Positions 6,457-10,311 of a stretch of 64,000 bases of DNA are shown here, one piece after another; the stretch's first letter is position 1; each line of letters begins with the position of its first letter. The notes under the pieces were generated by a model. The model made no database searches and was not told the origin of the DNA. It saw only the letters and a list, made by a program, of their open reading frames with translations. A program made the position numbers and the translations under genes. The DNA comes from Methanomassiliicoccaceae archaeon (GTDB lineage: Archaea > Thermoplasmatota > Thermoplasmata > Methanomassiliicoccales > Methanomassiliicoccaceae), in NCBI GenBank assembly GCA_040776945.1, contig JAXGZN010000001.1, forward strand, positions 704,001 through 768,000, written 5' to 3'.

Positions 6457-6655
6457 GCCGCCGGGCGCACGCCTCGGTGCTCTCGCCTTTGCGGCGGGAG
6501 CCCCTGACCTCCGAGGTTATGAGGACGTAGCGCTCGAAATCAAGGCCCCGGTTGCGCAGCACCCGCCCTAGAGCGTGCTCCACCTCCTCCTTGCGCAGCT
6601 TGACGTCAAGCGCTTCCTTCAGCAGCTTCAGGTCCTCGGCGCTCAGCGGTGCCAT
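6440..6655 (-). CDS. small hypothetical protein
   Basis: 71-aa helical ORF overlapping the guaAA stop, host-like codons. Confidence 0.6.
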   Translation of the reverse strand: MAPLSAEDLKLLKEALDVKLRKEEVEHALGRVLRNRGLDFERYVLITSEVRGSRRKGESTEACARRLTEDR

Positions 6656-7215
6656 TCCTCGACCACCTTCAGGAAGTTCTTGAAGATCTCATAGCCGTGC
6701 TCGGTGTTCTCCACCTCGGGATGGAACTGCAGGCCGTAGAACGGTCGGTCCTTGACCTTGATGGCCTCCACCGGGCAATCGATGGTGTGGGCGAGCACCT
6801 CGAAGCTTTCCGGCACCCGCTTCACCTCGTCATTGTGGCTCTGCCATACCACGAACTCCTTCGGCAGCCCGAGGAAGATGTCGTCCTCTTGGTCGACCGT
6901 CAGCGTGGCCTTCCCGAACTCCGGCCTTCCCGCGGGAGCGGTGGCGCCGCCAAAGTGGTTGGTCATGAAGTGGAGGCCAGCGCATATGCCGAGTATCGGA
7001 AAATCGGCGCGGTCAAGGTACTCGCCGTTGCGGCCCATCTTCTCGTTCTCGTCGGCGACGTGCGGAGACCCGCCGGAGAGCACCAGGGCGTCGACGTCCA
7101 ACCGTTCCAAGGGCGTGGTGTTCGGCACGATCTTGGTCTCCACGTCCAGATACTTCAGCACCCGCCATTCACGGTGGGTCCATTGGCCGCCGTTGTCCAC
7201 GACGTAGACGCGCAT
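6643..7215 (-). CDS. guaAA: GMP synthase subunit A (glutamine amidotransferase)
   Basis: VDNGGQWTH, PILGICAG (catalytic Cys) and QFHPE. Confidence 0.95.
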   Translation of the reverse strand: MRVYVVDNGGQWTHREWRVLKYLDVETKIVPNTTPLERLDVDALVLSGGSPHVADENEKMGRNGEYLDRADFPILGICAGLHFMTNHFGGATAPAGRPEFGKATLTVDQEDDIFLGLPKEFVVWQSHNDEVKRVPESFEVLAHTIDCPVEAIKVKDRPFYGLQFHPEVENTEHGYEIFKNFLKVVEEWHR

Positions 7216-7315: not shown

Positions 7316-8029
7316 ATGAAAGCGGTTCTGTTCGACCTCGGCCACACGCTCATCGACTACTATTGTGACTGGAAGGCCCCTGAGGACCGCGGCATCGCCG
7401 GCATATATGAAATCGTCCGCGAGTCCGCATCTAGGGTGGACCGCCAGGAGTTCACTGACTTCCTGGCGGAAAGGCTGCGCCGGTCCAGGAGCATGAAGTT
7501 CGACCATTATGTGGAGATCCCCCTGGCCGACCTAATGGGGGAATGTCTGGACCGGTACGGATGCTTGGACGAGGACAACCTCCAGAGAAGCCTGGAGGTG
7601 TTCTATGGGGTGCTTCTGGAGGACCGGCAGTTGGTCAACGGAGCGGTGGAGCTTCTGGCCTCGATCAAGGACCGCGGTCTGAGCGTCGGCCTGATCTCGG
7701 ACGTGGCGTGGGGTTTGCCGTCAGAGTTCCCCATGCGGGACATCCGGCACTTCGGGATGGACCGCTACTTCGACGACTACGTGTTCAGCACCGACGTCGG
7801 CCTCCGGAAGCCGCACCCCAAGATGTTCAAGATCGCGTTGTCGAACCTTGGCGTCGACGCGTCGGAGGCGATGTACGTAGGCAACTCGCTGGCCCAGGAC
7901 ATCAAGGGCGCGAAGGGCGTGGGCATCAAGGCGGTGCTGAAGTGCTCGGCCTTCTGCCCCCAGGCCGAAGGGGTCGTCCCCGACCACACCGTGGGGACGC
8001 TGGCGGAGATCGAGGGGCTGCTCGAGTAG
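7316..8029 (+). CDS. HAD-superfamily hydrolase
   Basis: FDLGHTL motif I, RKPHP, YVGNSLAQDIKGA. Confidence 0.88.
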   Translation: MKAVLFDLGHTLIDYYCDWKAPEDRGIAGIYEIVRESASRVDRQEFTDFLAERLRRSRSMKFDHYVEIPLADLMGECLDRYGCLDEDNLQRSLEVFYGVLLEDRQLVNGAVELLASIKDRGLSVGLISDVAWGLPSEFPMRDIRHFGMDRYFDDYVFSTDVGLRKPHPKMFKIALSNLGVDASEAMYVGNSLAQDIKGAKGVGIKAVLKCSAFCPQAEGVVPDHTVGTLAEIEGLLE

Positions 8030-8043
8030 GATTCGCACTTTCG

Positions 8044-9346
8044 GTGACCTCCCCCCGGAGGACGTATAAATTCGGTGGTACCAATCAATTTCGATGAGAA
8101 GGCTCACCTTCGAGTATCGGCTCTATCCTAACAAACAACAGGAAGCTTGCCTCATCCGGTCATTTTCTTCAGCCCAGGAGATGTACAACCTTCTGTTGGA
8201 GAAGGCCATCAGCGTTTATGAGACAGAGGGAAAAAGGCTGAGCAAATATGATATGTGCAAATATGTAAAAACCATTAAAGACCGGGACGAAACGTTCTAC
8301 GCGACCTATTCTCAAGTGCTTCAGAACTGCGCCGACCGGCTGTCAAAGGCTTTCGATAATTTCTTCAGGCGGGTAAAGGAGAACAAGGAGGGAAAGCGCC
8401 AGAAGCCAGGTTTCCCTAGGTTCAAGAGGTCGATCAAGAGCATTACATATCCTCAGGACGGATTCAAGATCGATCATGGCGGAAGGACGATCTCCATCTG
8501 CAAGATAGGAAGGGTCCGGGTCCGGCTACATCGGCCGATCATCGGACAGATAAAGACAATGACCATCGTGAGGCGGAGATCTGGAAAGTGGTTCGTTCTT
8601 TTCTCCTGCATCATCGATGATGAAACGGTTCCGCCGAAAAAGGGGCCGGAGATAGGTATCGACCTAGGGGTCCGGCATTTCATCACCACTTCCGAGGGCG
8701 AGCACATCGATCATCTGGTATTGTCGGACTATGAAAGAAGAAAGCTGAAACGGCTCTAGAGGAACATCGACAGGAAGCCGATGGGCAGTCATAACCGGGA
8801 GAAGGCCCGCATCACGTTCGCAAAAGCAAAAGAGAAGGAGACCGACCAGAGACATGATTTCCTTCACAAGATCAGCCGGGACCTGGTCGATAGGCATGGC
8901 ATCATCGCCCTGGAGTCGTTGGATATCAAGCAACTGATCCAGCTGAGCCCATGTCCGGATGATATCAATCGATCGGCCTGGGGGGGGGCCTGACACAGAT
9001 GATCGAGTACAAGGCTGAAAGTGCTGGTACTCGCCTGTTGTTCGTGGACAGGTATGACCCCACGTCCCAGATATGCTCTGGATGCAAAGAGATCGGGATG
9101 ATCGGCAGAAGACAGACCGTGTATCATTGTCCGAAATGTGGGCTCTCTTTGGACAGGGACATCAATGCCGCGATTAACATACTAAGGATAGCAAAAATTA
9201 GGGCGGGGCACGCCCGAAGTGACGCCTGGGGAGAGGGGACCTCCACATCTCAGATCGTTGAGATGCGAGTTCCCTCGTTGAACCCGGAACCAGAGGTCGG
9301 GACCGAGGTCCTGATCACCTCGTCTTTCAGATGTACTGGATGCCAC
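8044..9346 (+). mobile_element. tnpB-only IS200/IS605-family (IS1341-like) element, no tnpA
   Basis: Visibly lower-GC island containing tnpB. The right end reads ...TTTCAGATG-TACT-GGATGCCAC, resembling the GGATGTCAC-type ends of archaeal tnpB elements. The left boundary is approximate. Confidence 0.75.
8065..8071 (+). promoter_or_regulatory. TATA box of tnpB (probably leaderless transcript)
   Basis: TATAAAT ending 22 nt before ATG 8094. Confidence 0.5.
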
Positions 9347-9362
9347 TCCCACTCTATTGTTG
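9200..9362 (+). ncRNA. putative TnpB omega-RNA (reRNA) with a 16-nt 3' guide
   Basis: Overlaps the tnpB 3' end. Stems: GGGCG/CGCCC (9201-9215); GAGGGGAC...GTTCCCTC with inner CATCTC/GAGATG (9233-9276); GGTCGGGAC-CGAG-GTCCTGATC (9295-9316). The scaffold ends at GGATGCCAC (9346). Boundaries are inferred. Confidence 0.65.
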
Positions 9363-9383
9363 GTCACTCCCACTCTATTGTTG
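9342..9383. repeat. 21-bp tandem duplication G(C/T)CACTCCCACTCTATTGTTG
   Basis: 9342-9362 and 9363-9383 match at 20 of 21 positions; the second copy is the guaAB 3' end on the minus strand. Confidence 0.95.
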
Positions 9384-10311
9384 AAGGTGGTTTGTTCGTT
9401 ATATCGTAGACCACCCGGTTGACGTCGCTCTTCATCTCGTTGGTGATGCGCACCGAGATGCGCTCCAGCACCTCGTGCGGGATGCGGGAGTACGAGGCGC
9501 TCATGCCGTCGATCGACTCCACCGAGCGCACCGCGATCGTCCGCCCGTACGCGCGGTTATCGCCTTGGACGCCGACCGACTGGCAGGGCAGCAGGACGGC
9601 GAAGTACTGCCACGGCCGGGGCATCTTCCCGGCGGCGGACGCCAGCTCGATCTCCTCCTCCACGATGGCGCAGGCCTCCCTTACGATGCCGACCGACTCC
9701 GGCGTCACCTCTCCGATGACCCGGACCGCCAGCGCCGGGCCGGGGAACGGCTGACGCTCCGACACTGGCACCTTGAGGTAGCGGGCAACGACGCGCACCT
9801 CGTCCTTGTACAGGTCGCGGAGGGGCTCCACCAGCTCCATCTCCATGTCCTTCGGCAGGCCTCCGACGTTGTGGTGGCTCTTGATGACGTCCCGCACTCC
9901 GTCCCCGCTCTCGATCCAGTCCGGAGCGATCGTGCCCTGCACCAGGTACTTGGCCCCGAACTCCTTGGCGGTGCGCTCGAAGACGCGGATGAACCTCTCG
10001 CCGATTATCTTGCGCTTCCTCTCCGGATCGGTGACGCCCTTCATCGCGGCAAAGAACTCGTCGGCTGCGTCGACCAGCAGGTAGTTCACTCCCAAGCTGT
10101 CGAATATCTTGCTGACCGCCTCGGTCTCGTTCTTGCGCATGAAGCCATTGTTCACGTACACCGTGAGGAGCCGATCGCCGATGGCCTTGGACGCCAGGGC
10201 GGCGGCCACGGTGCTGTCCACGCCCCCGGAGCAGGCGATTATCGCCTTCCCCTTGATCTGGGCCCTCATCCTCTCGATCTGCTCATTGACGAACTGCTCA
10301 ACCTTGAACAT
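9364..10311 (-). CDS. guaAB: GMP synthase subunit B (ATP pyrophosphatase)
   Basis: SGGVDS PP-loop, [16 protein letters not shown] and C-terminal [14 protein letters not shown]. Confidence 0.96.

What the first reader, a model, noticed from the sequence alone, without database searches (positions are those of the whole stretch)
9338..9383. TnpB omega-RNA guide points at a TCAC-flanked copy of itself in the last codons of guaAB (self-targeting locus)
Seen: the structured tnpB 3' region ends in GGATGCCAC (9338-9346). It is followed by TCCCACTCTATTGTTG (9347-9362), then G-TCAC (9363-9367), then the identical 16-mer (9368-9383). That second copy is the antisense of the guaAB end (...TIEWE), and the TCA is the guaAB stop codon. 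Established: TnpB guides are the roughly 16-20 nt just outside the right end; TnpB needs a 5' TAM (TCAC is one characterised TAM, in Alicyclobacillus macrosporangiidus TnpB) and cuts about 15-21 nt from it; IS200/IS605 insertion makes no target duplication; the guaA 3' end is a known integration hotspot in bacteria. Inference: the locus holds both a guide and a separate TAM-plus-target inside a core purine gene. It could be a TnpB specialised on the conserved guaA terminus (homing, or guarding an attachment site), a cut-and-repair scar (the duplication ends 16 nt from the TCAC), or an antisense/roadblock regulator of guaAB. A simple 21-bp slippage duplication gives the same sequence and cannot be excluded here.
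Basis: partly seen in the sequence, partly recalled or inferred. Interest (0 to 1): 0.85.

Follow-up and report, generated by a model that had tools for sequence, protein, structure and literature searches.

The report
Fossil TnpB guide facing guaAB stop
A broken, immobile transposon nuclease gene (tnpB) sits exactly on the stop codon of the purine gene guaAB in a methanogenic archaeon, and an old 21-base duplication has left its guide-RNA slot and a matching target side by side; this looks like an informative fossil, not a working self-cutting system.

Summary
Positions 9344-9383 are a 21-bp tandem repeat, and the 16-mer occurs only twice in the 2.17-Mb genome.

GGATGCCAC (9338-9346) matches the terminus (GGATGTCAC / GGAAGTCAC) at which 11 related elements stop being alike. 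An NCAC motif flanks the left end, so TCAC is a plausible TAM.

The arrangement is old. A second Methanomassiliicoccus species (G002) has the orthologous element with the same duplication. One guide position changed in parallel with guaAB.

The nuclease is dead. In the window it carries an in-frame TAG and a +2 frameshift in a G9 run, both seen in independent read sets. In G002 about 730 bp are deleted. No Y1 transposase was found in this genome.

A different tnpB family sits on the same guaAB stop in three other species. There its end appears to supply a TAG stop.

No tnpB was found at a guaA end outside this genus.

Verdict: this is a fossil guide-plus-target junction of an IS200/IS605-type element. 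How the duplication arose is unresolved, and a past function is possible but unproven.

The parts
7316..8029 (+). HAD-family hydrolase gene and left neighbour; its TAG stop (8027-8029) abuts the element
   Evidence: ORF. PF00702 at 76 bits. The same neighbour is present in G002 and G008.
8030..8093 (+). Left end of the element: GCAC (8035-8038, TAM-like flank), left-end core TTTCGGTGACC (8039-8049), hairpin CCTCC/GGAGG (8048-8061) and a TATA-like GTATAAAT (8064-8071)
   Evidence: Sequence. The core is shared with G002, with family B in G005/G006/G008 and with the A-like elements. The exact cleavage point was not determined.
8094..9298 (+). tnpB pseudogene (family A). Frame 1 runs 8094-8756, followed by an in-frame TAG at 8757-8759. 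The same frame continues to a TGA at 8991-8993. The G9 run at 8980-8988 carries +2 bases. The last part starts at 8999 in another frame; by homology the coding region ends near 9298.
   Evidence: ORFs. Pfam: PF12323, PF01385 and PF07282 on the three pieces. The lesions appear with 0 differences in contigs of 3 RNA libraries and 1 DNA run.
9181..9346 (+). omega-RNA scaffold / right end: conserved core 9181-9299, variable stretch 9300-9330, conserved terminal piece 9331-9346 ending in GGATGCCAC
   Evidence: Identity to G002: 104/118, 17/31 and 15/16 for the three pieces, against 0.59-0.70 at fourfold sites. The terminus is homologous to GGATGTCAC| and GGAAGTCAC|. Rfam had no match.
9347..9362 (+). 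Guide slot (copy 1 of the 16-mer), lying outside any gene
   Evidence: It is the first 16 nt after the right-end terminus. 15/17 positions are conserved with G002.
9343..9384 (.). 21-bp tandem duplication (units 9343-9363 and 9364-9384)
   Evidence: The orthologous duplication is present in G002.
9364..9367 (+). TCAC: TAM-like motif. TCA is the guaAB stop codon read on the other strand.
   Evidence: The equivalent in G002 is TCAT.
9368..9383 (+). Protospacer-like copy 2, the antisense of the last guaAB codons (S)TIEWE
9364..10311 (-). guaAB (GMP synthase, ATP-pyrophosphatase subunit), intact
   Evidence: Compared with G002: 86% nt identity, dN/dS 0.11.
6643..7215 (-). guaAA (glutamine amidotransferase subunit), context only
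   Evidence: PF00117 at 134 bits.

Best explanation
This is the right junction of a decaying, immobile tnpB-only element of the IS200/IS605 kind. The element fills the gap between a HAD hydrolase gene and guaAB.

Shown: the right end and omega-RNA scaffold stop at 9346. The next 16 nt are the guide slot. Twenty-one nt further on, the same 16 nt recur behind TCAC as the last codons of guaAB.

Inferred history:
1. The element inserted 3' of the TCAC that overlaps the guaAB stop. Its own terminus, GTCAC in its relatives, rebuilt that stop. Family B appears to do the equivalent today with CTAC/CTAT, giving a TAG stop.
2. Before G000 and G002 split, a 21-bp tandem duplication of [terminus + 16-17 nt] arose. 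This freed the end-proximal copy to drift to CCAC/CCGC. It also left a guide and a TAM-flanked match side by side.
3. TnpB stayed under purifying selection for much of the time since the split, then died independently in both lineages.

Today nothing is cleaved.
For: - Anatomy.
- Right-end terminus: 9 of 9 Methanothrix loci share ...GGGAGGAAGTCAC and then diverge. One of them carries a Y1 TnpA (PF01797, 136.7 bits). Two Micrarchaeota loci share ...GGGAGGATGTCAC and then diverge.
- Left-end flank NCAC.
- Orthology and an ancestral duplication: G002 has the same neighbours, the same ends and the same 21-bp repeat with the same C/T difference in its second position.
- Dead nuclease: the TAG and the G9 run are present with 0 differences in contigs from 3 RNA libraries and 1 DNA run. 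G002 lacks about 730 bp and has G in place of the RuvC-II glutamate.
- No transposase: no Y1 TnpA in this genome, which is 99.8% complete. Weak fragments were found in 1 of 11 genomes of the genus.
- Vertical descent under constraint: tnpB dS is 0.53-0.85 against host 0.49-0.56, and dN/dS is 0.20-0.53.
- Family B parallel: the 3 of 20 guaAB ends with a CTA (TAG) stop are exactly the 3 that carry family B. There the hairpin plus 10 nt ends at CTAC/CTAT directly before TCCCA.
Against: - The guide slot is more conserved than neutral expectation. It is 15/17 identical, P = 0.01-0.08 depending on which fourfold-site identity is used. The stretch 9331-9363 is 30/33 identical, P = 6e-5 to 4e-3.
- Its one informative change matches the change in guaAB. 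A mere fossil should have drifted.
- The shared C/T difference at the start of the unit argues against whole-unit homogenisation by slippage.
- An active nuclease living for a long time beside its own TAM-flanked target is awkward, unless the true TAM differs from TCAC.
- The right-end boundary rests on a 9-nt motif plus a conservation profile. A second candidate terminus, GATCAC at 9313-9318, follows a hairpin at 9299-9312.
- The TAM was never measured.
- The RNA evidence consists of contigs only and carries no strand or end information.
Confidence: 0.6

Rival explanations
1. A selected guide-target pair. The duplication hard-wired a guide against the invariant guaAB terminus. On this view TnpB plus omega-RNA acted as a site-specific homing or attachment-site-guarding nuclease. 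Alternatively it acted as a DNA-bound roadblock, or the RNA acted as an antisense, at the guaAB 3' end. The guide was kept matched to guaAB by selection.
For: - The guide slot is conserved above neutral expectation, and one substitution parallels guaAB.
- The omega core is 88% identical, against 59-70% at fourfold sites.
- tnpB dN/dS is below 1 without any transposase in the genome.
- Two unrelated tnpB families (28% amino-acid identity) occupy the same site in 5 of 11 genomes of the genus. Their carriers are not monophyletic on a guaAB+flank tree.
- The 16-mer has no other match in the genome.
- Contigs from RNA libraries bridge scaffold, repeat and guaAB.
Against: - tnpB is broken in both carriers of the duplication.
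- The RuvC residues are those of a nuclease, not of a TldR-like binder (read). Cutting one's own guaAB would be harmful.
- Co-variation rests on a single site, with about 9% chance expectation.
- G002 has TCAT rather than TCAC, and 15/16 matches.
- No other lineage was found: 261 genomes of the order, one metagenome scan, and 0 of 48 pattern hits across species representatives.
Confidence: 0.17
2. A cut-and-repair scar. This concerns the origin of the duplication only and is compatible with the best explanation. When the right-end terminus was still GTCAC it acted as a TAM for the element's own guide. TnpB then cut about 16-17 nt downstream, and misaligned repair copied [TAM + 16-17 nt] once more.
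For: - The unit length equals a 4-5-nt terminus plus 16-17 nt.
- Published cleavage on the non-target strand lies 15-18 nt from the TAM in an archaeal TnpB (passages read in bioRxiv 10.1101/2023.03.06.531077).
- The ancestral terminus in relatives is GTCAC.
- A loosely similar case exists. A B-like element sits 5 nt after a tRNA-Leu-like gene, and the 12 nt after its right end repeat that gene's 3' part, with a period of 23 nt once the element is removed.
Against: - No repair pathway is known to me that yields exactly this product from 5'-overhang cuts. This is inference, not a tested result.
- 0 of 23 related elements show a nearby copy of their guide at 14/16 or better within 150 nt.
- The left boundary of the unit does not coincide with any known TnpA or TnpB cut site.
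Confidence: 0.15
3. An unrelated slippage duplication. On this view the right end stops earlier, at GATCAC (9318). The stretch 9319-9363 is then ordinary intergenic DNA or guaAB 3'-UTR, and the 21-bp repeat has nothing to do with a guide.
For: - A hairpin (9299-9312) followed by GATCAC resembles the hairpin-plus-terminus geometry of the Methanothrix relatives.
- Partial duplications of a guaA end also occur without any tnpB. One of the 48 pattern hits, L274, shows one.
Against: - GATCAC is not conserved in G002, where the equivalent is GCCAG, whereas 9331-9346 is 15/16 identical.
- The Micrarchaeota relatives have two hairpins before ...GGATGTCAC, as this element has before GGATGCCAC.
- Family B has the same layout directly on the stop codon.
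Confidence: 0.1

Closest known systems
IS200/IS605-family tnpB elements with a right-end-derived omega-RNA (ISDra2, AmaTnpB; tnpB-only 'IS1341-type' copies)
   Same: It has the three TnpB domains. The conserved RNA region overlaps the tnpB 3' end and runs to the right-end terminus. The guide is the 16 nt after the right end, and the TAM-like motif sits at the left-end flank. There is no flanking target duplication. Relatives carry a Y1 TnpA.
   Different: The guide slot is a duplicated copy of the flank, not the gene flank itself. A TAM-flanked match lies 21 nt away in cis. The element is single-copy, vertically inherited and lacks a transposase. The left end is unlike that of its nearest TnpB relatives.
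TldR, nuclease-dead TnpB relatives that act as RNA-guided repressors (passages read in bioRxiv 10.1101/2023.11.30.569447)
   Same: An immobile TnpB relative whose guide matches a conserved host gene site.
   Different: TldRs have lost their RuvC residues and their transposon ends, and they target promoters. Here the ends are kept, the RuvC D/E/D positions look intact in the window copy (read; motif assignment recalled), the match lies at the 3' end of a gene, and the gene is broken.
Self-targeting CRISPR spacers
   Same: A guide and a motif-flanked matching protospacer sit in the same genome, together with an inactivated effector.
   Different: There is no array and no acquisition machinery. 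The match arose by local duplication, not by spacer uptake. This comparison is from recall only.
Integrative elements and homing endonucleases that use conserved gene termini (tRNA or guaA 3' ends) and rebuild the gene end
   Same: The insertion lies exactly at an invariant gene terminus, and the element supplies the replaced stop codon (family B: CTA; ancestral family A: TCA).
   Different: There is no integrase and there are no att repeats flanking the element. The mechanism would be single-strand Y1 transposition and/or RNA-guided homing. That guaA is an island hotspot in bacteria is recalled; I did not check it.

Membership tests
TnpB (IS200/IS605 OrfB / Cas12f-like) | HTH_OrfB_IS605, OrfB_IS605 (RuvC) and TNB zinc-ribbon domains in that order | tested here: met
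   PF12323 at 33.7 bits, PF01385 at 34.3 bits and PF07282 at 75.4 bits on the three ORF pieces.
TnpB (IS200/IS605 OrfB / Cas12f-like) | One uninterrupted reading frame | tested here: not met
   There is an in-frame TAG at 8757-8759 and a +2 frameshift in the G9 run at 8980-8988. Both are confirmed in independent contigs. PylS is present, so only the TAG might be read through.
TnpB (IS200/IS605 OrfB / Cas12f-like) | RuvC D-E-D catalytic residues | tested here: inconclusive
   GIDLG, ALESL and DRDINA are visible in the translation. G002 has AVGSI at the glutamate position. The motif assignment is by recall; I made no structural or profile column check.
IS200/IS605 element | Right end with a subterminal hairpin and a defined terminus shared with relatives | tested here: met
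   GGATGCCAC at 9338-9346 corresponds to GGATGTCAC| (2 loci) and to GGAAGTCAC| (9 loci).
IS200/IS605 element | Y1 (HUH) TnpA in the element or the genome | tested here: not met
   0 PF01797 matches in G000. Only weak fragments were found in 1 of 11 genomes of the genus. The Methanothrix relative L032 has one. The element is therefore a non-autonomous, tnpB-only copy.
IS200/IS605 element | Target motif (TAM) abutting the left end, with no flanking target duplication | tested here: inconclusive
   NCAC precedes the shared left-end core at three sites. However, the left-end cleavage point is ambiguous: family B has a 10-nt tandem repeat there. The 21-bp repeat lies on one side of the element only.
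omega-RNA | Expressed RNA comprising a scaffold plus a guide of about 16 nt | not testable with these tools
   Only contigs from RNA libraries were available. They bridge 9129-9545, 8967-9497 and 9172-9700 without strand or end information. Rfam had no match.
TldR-like domesticated TnpB | Loss of RuvC residues and of transposon ends, with the guide aimed at a promoter | tested here: not met
   The ends are kept. The RuvC motifs are present in the window copy. The match lies at the gene's 3' end.

The most novel reading that the evidence does not exclude
A TnpB lineage that became a fixed-guide, site-specific system for the invariant guaAB terminus. The junction duplication internalised the guide, which then tracked guaAB sequence changes. 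This let a transposase-less tnpB persist under selection across speciation, either as a homing or attachment-site-guarding nuclease or as an RNA-guided 3'-end roadblock. A second tnpB family has converged on the same stop codon.
Probability: 0.12. Interest if true: 0.8.

Novelty: new variant of a known kind. Interest (0 to 1): 0.45.

Why it matters
If the pair was ever functional, it would be a natural case of a TnpB guide uncoupled from its flank and kept matched to a conserved host gene. That would be a step between selfish homing and the domesticated, fixed-target RNA-guided proteins such as TldR and the Cas12k attachment guides.

Even as a fossil it shows three useful things:
- An IS200/IS605-type element can land on a stop codon silently, because its own terminus rebuilds the stop.
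- The guaAB stop (TCAC) has been occupied by two unrelated tnpB families within one archaeal genus.
- Transposase-less tnpB genes can persist vertically under purifying selection.

It also offers a defined test substrate for TAM and cleavage assays of archaeal TnpBs: TCAC versus CCAC in front of the same 16-mer.

Tried and rejected
- Rfam search of 7800-9700: no family matched.
- A 15-mer from the right end scanned over all species genomes returned only chance hits, at least 120. This scan was wasted.
- Other copies of the element: none in the own genome. In 261 genomes of the order, only G002 and two partial relatives turned up.
- The left-end motif in the order found G008, G002 and three non-tnpB repeats in G091/G092.
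- The metagenome scan for the scaffold plus terminus gave one contig, a 97%-identical strain of the window's organism with an identical junction. It added no new lineage.
- A degenerate motif joining the relatives' terminus to a degenerate guaA end gave 48 hits, none with a TnpB homologue within 8 kb. This is consistent with chance.
- I first took the point where the G005:C10 and G008:C3 copies lose similarity as a right-end boundary near 9297. I rejected that because the two loci are orthologous, both lying next to an arsC-like gene.
- I considered that the 32-nt insert in the tRNA-Leu-like gene of L242 is a collapsed right end. I rejected that because 374 of 500 shuffles scored as well.
- RNAalifold on two sequences proposed a long-range pairing of 9157-9163 with 9340-9345. 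It is not supported in the A-like relatives, so I did not use it. The single-sequence fold was not better than shuffles, z = -1.28.
- Parts of the stretch without cover in RNA-library contigs were not interpreted.
- The two other TNB hits in the genome are unrelated fragments.
- Literature: 'TnpB' + 'guaA' found 2 papers, both on enterococcal resistance elements judging by title. 'TnpB' + 'self-targeting' + 'guide' + 'transposon end' found nothing describing such a junction among the 10 papers listed. Supplements were closed and may hold TAM tables that bear on NCAC.
Full report
**Observation.** The sequence is as described. GGATGCCAC lies at 9338-9346. The 16-mer lies at 9347-9362 and again at 9368-9383, with G-TCAC in between. 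TCA at 9364-9366 is the stop of the minus-strand ORF 9364..10311, which ends ...TIEWE. That ORF is the ATP-pyrophosphatase subunit of GMP synthase (PF00958, 123 bits). The repeat is really a 21-bp tandem duplication: Tandem Repeats Finder gives 9344-9383, period 21, 100% matches. The 16-mer, with up to 2 mismatches, occurs twice in the window against 0 in 100 shuffles, and only these two times in the 2.17-Mb genome.

**The element.** Between the HAD hydrolase gene (7316-8029) and guaAB lies a tnpB split into three pieces. Each piece carries one of the three TnpB domains. The breaks are an in-frame TAG at 8757-8759 and two extra G in a G9 run at 8980-8988. Both are real. Contigs from three metatranscriptome libraries of different studies and one DNA run cover them with no differences. 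The genome encodes PylS (280 bits against a cut-off of 178), so the TAG might be read through, but the frameshift remains. The element is single-copy. The genome, 99.8% complete, has no Y1 transposase. Its two other TNB hits are fragments of other elements. Across the genus, only 1 of 11 genomes shows even weak Y1 fragments.

**Where the right end stops.** No second copy of this element exists in 261 genomes of the order, so I used more distant relatives.
- Nine Methanothrix loci (about 40% amino-acid identity) share sequence up to ...GGGAGGAAGTCAC and then diverge. One of them, L032, has a Y1 TnpA upstream (PF01797, 136.7 bits).
- Two Micrarchaeota loci share an omega-RNA core almost identical to the window's. 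They run together up to ...GGGAGGATGTCAC and then diverge.
- The window's GGATGCCAC at 9338-9346 is this terminus with one change. It also follows a second hairpin, as in those relatives.
- The conservation profile against the orthologue in G002 agrees. The core 9181-9299 is 104/118 identical, 9300-9330 is 17/31, and 9331-9346 is 15/16. Fourfold-degenerate sites in the flanking genes are 0.59-0.70 identical.

An alternative terminus, GATCAC at 9313-9318, is not conserved in G002. I therefore accept 9346 as the end and 9347-9362 as the guide slot, with the caveat that no RNA ends could be mapped.

**TAM.** The left-end core TTTCGGGGACC plus hairpin is shared by three groups: this element and G002, a different tnpB family (B) at the same site in G005/G006/G008, and the A-like elements at another site. 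It is preceded by GCAC, TCAC (or CAC) and TTCAC respectively. Family B has a 10-nt tandem repeat there, CCACTTTCGG-TCACTTTCGG, which leaves two possible cleavage points. Both are YCAC. More distant B-like elements show TCAC, TCAAT or TCGAT. TCAC is a published TAM for AmaTnpB (passages read in PMC10278001). The rule that the TAM equals the left-end flank is stated in passages of bioRxiv 10.1101/2023.03.06.531077. A TCAC-like TAM is therefore plausible, but it has not been measured.

**Age and co-variation.** G002 is another species of the genus, named Methanomassiliicoccus in record titles. It has the same element between the same genes. It keeps the left end and the first 17 codons, then has an internal deletion of about 730 bp, then the last 500 nt. 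It also has the same 21-bp duplication...GGATGCCGC, 16-mer, A, TCAT, 15/16-matching 16-mer.
- Both species have C in the end-proximal unit where the guaAB unit has the T of the stop codon, so the duplication predates their split.
- G002's copy 1 keeps ...GTTGA, as in the window's guaAB. G002's own guaAB has since changed there.
- Position 9 of the 16-mer is T in both copies in the window and G in both copies in G002. This site is the third base of the Ile codon.
- By my simulation, such a parallel identical change has about a 9% chance expectation.
- The guide slot is 15/17 identical between species, P = 0.01-0.08 under the fourfold-site identities. The stretch 9331-9363 is 30/33 identical, P = 6e-5 to 4e-3.

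The guide slot has thus not drifted as free DNA would, but the evidence comes from one lineage pair and one informative site.

**History of tnpB.** The shared coding parts have dS 0.53-0.85 against 0.49-0.56 for guaAB and the neighbouring purE-like gene (that name is recalled, not tested). Their dN/dS is 0.20-0.53. The gene therefore co-diverged with its host and was under purifying selection for much of that time. The two inactivations are independent and comparatively late. G002 has also lost the RuvC-II glutamate.

**A second family on the same stop codon.** In G005, G006 and G008 a different tnpB lies between the HAD side and guaAB in the same orientation. It is 28% identical to the A-like protein and has the same Pfam domains. 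Its conserved 3' region runs through a hairpin plus 10 nt ending in CTAC/CTAT, directly followed by TCCCAT..., the guaAB end. There is no duplication.
- Of the 20 guaAB ends examined, 15 stop with TCA, 2 with TTA and 3 with CTA. The 3 with CTA are exactly the family-B carriers. This suggests the element's terminus supplies the TAG stop.
- G005's copy looks uninterrupted. G008's is in pieces. G006's is internally deleted.
- On a guaAB+flank tree, the carriers of A and of B are each interleaved with element-free species. This implies repeated loss or allele exchange.
- Element-free relatives have a short AT-rich spacer instead.

**Wider searches were negative.** Upstream of guaAB, TnpB homologues occur in 5 of 20 loci, all in this genus. 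A motif joining the relatives' terminus to a degenerate guaA end hit 48 species genomes, none with a TnpB homologue nearby. One metagenome scan returned only a strain of the same organism. None of 23 related elements carries a copy of its own guide slot at 14/16 or better within 150 nt. Within 1.8 kb there are two other partial echoes. L239 matches 13/16 to a tRNA-Leu D-arm 133 nt away. L242 and L244 match 13-14/16 to the 3' part of an adjacent tRNA-Leu-like gene.

**Explanation.** The best-supported reading is a fossil.
1. A tnpB-only IS200/IS605-type element inserted after the TCAC that overlaps the guaAB stop.
2. Its terminus, GTCAC in relatives, rebuilt the stop, much as family B appears to do with CTA.
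3. A 21-bp duplication of terminus plus 16-17 nt arose before the G000/G002 split.
4. The end-proximal TCAC drifted to CCAC/CCGC.
5. TnpB later decayed in both lineages.

The insertion steps and the origin of the duplication are inferred. The anatomy, the orthology and the decay are shown. Three rivals remain: a once-selected guide-target pair (homing with a fixed guide, or a roadblock or antisense role); a TnpB cut-and-repair origin of the duplication; and an unrelated slippage event with an earlier right end. The conservation of the guide slot and the long survival of tnpB beside its own match keep the first rival alive. The broken genes, the single co-varying site and the lack of other lineages keep it a minority view.

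**Comparison and novelty.** By domains, right-end homology and relatives carrying a Y1 TnpA, this is a member of the IS200/IS605 tnpB world. It fails the tests for an intact gene and for a resident transposase. It is not TldR-like: the ends are kept, the RuvC motifs are present, and the match lies at a gene's 3' end (passages read in bioRxiv 10.1101/2023.11.30.569447). I found no report of tnpB at guaA or of such a duplicated guide junction (supplements were closed). I rate it a new variant of a known kind, of moderate interest.

Noticed in passing
G005, G006, G008 (loci L197, L200, L196; L008/L012/L014): A second, unrelated tnpB family (28% amino-acid identity to the A-like protein) sits between the HAD side and guaAB. 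Its conserved 3' region ends in CTAC/CTAT directly on the guaAB end. These 3 of 20 genomes are the only ones with a TAG stop on guaAB. G005's copy looks intact.
   Followed up: partly
L196 about 2327-2350; L197 and L200 equivalents; window 8030-8049: The left end of family B begins with a 10-nt tandem repeat, CCACTTTCGG-TCACTTTCGG. G002 and the window keep a degraded version of it. This is a junction-spanning duplication at the left end that mirrors the one at the right end.
   Followed up: partly
window 8757-8759 and 8027-8029; G000:C2:368080-368766: The genome encodes PylS (280 bits), so TAG can be read as pyrrolysine in this organism. The in-frame TAG in tnpB may therefore not be a full stop. 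The neighbouring HAD gene ends in TAG, with a TGA six codons later.
   Followed up: partly
L242 and L244 (G019, G021): A B-like tnpB lies 5 nt after a tRNA-Leu-like gene. That gene has a 32-nt insert in its T-loop relative to the tRNA-Leu of L239, and ARAGORN does not call it. The 12 nt after the element's right end repeat the start of that gene's 3' part.
   Followed up: partly
L239 and L262 (G009, G008:C5): The 16 nt after the right end of a B-like tnpB match 13/16 the D-arm of a tRNA-Leu(TAA) gene 133 nt downstream on the same strand.
   Followed up: no
L206, L207 (G092) and L205 (G091): A motif like the left end (CACTTTCGGCGACCTCCCCCGGCAG followed by a TATA-like box) occurs in repeats that are not next to tnpB. 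It is preceded by a second CACTTTC. This may be a promoter-bearing repeat or a MITE derived from this kind of left end.
   Followed up: no
L005 (G001), the 90 nt between the HAD stop and the guaAB stop: This element-free species keeps a remnant like the left end (CTTCCGGGGAGATCCCCGAAAGG) but has no recognisable copy of the guaAB end. It is probably a collapsed element.
   Followed up: no
L024 (G005:C10) and L025 (G008:C3): An A-like tnpB lies next to an arsC-like gene at orthologous sites in two species. It has an uninterrupted 409-aa frame in G005 and is broken in G008. This is a second case of a tnpB kept at one site across speciation.
   Followed up: partly
L274 (Nitriliruptoraceae MAG): A bacterial guaA end is followed by a partial second copy of its own terminus, GGTCACTCCCAC...GGATGTCACTCCCAC. 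No TnpB homologue was found in the locus.
   Followed up: no
window 8999-9409: Because the homologue's stop near 9298 is missing, the last tnpB frame stays open through the right end, both repeat copies and 26 nt of antisense guaAB (ending ...[21 protein letters not shown]). This is probably meaningless.
   Followed up: no
window 8000-9700 in public runs: The stretch is held whole by DNA runs from at least 8 studies (digesters, sludge, soil, biofilm) and in part by 6 metatranscriptome runs. The organism and this exact junction are therefore widespread.
   Followed up: partly
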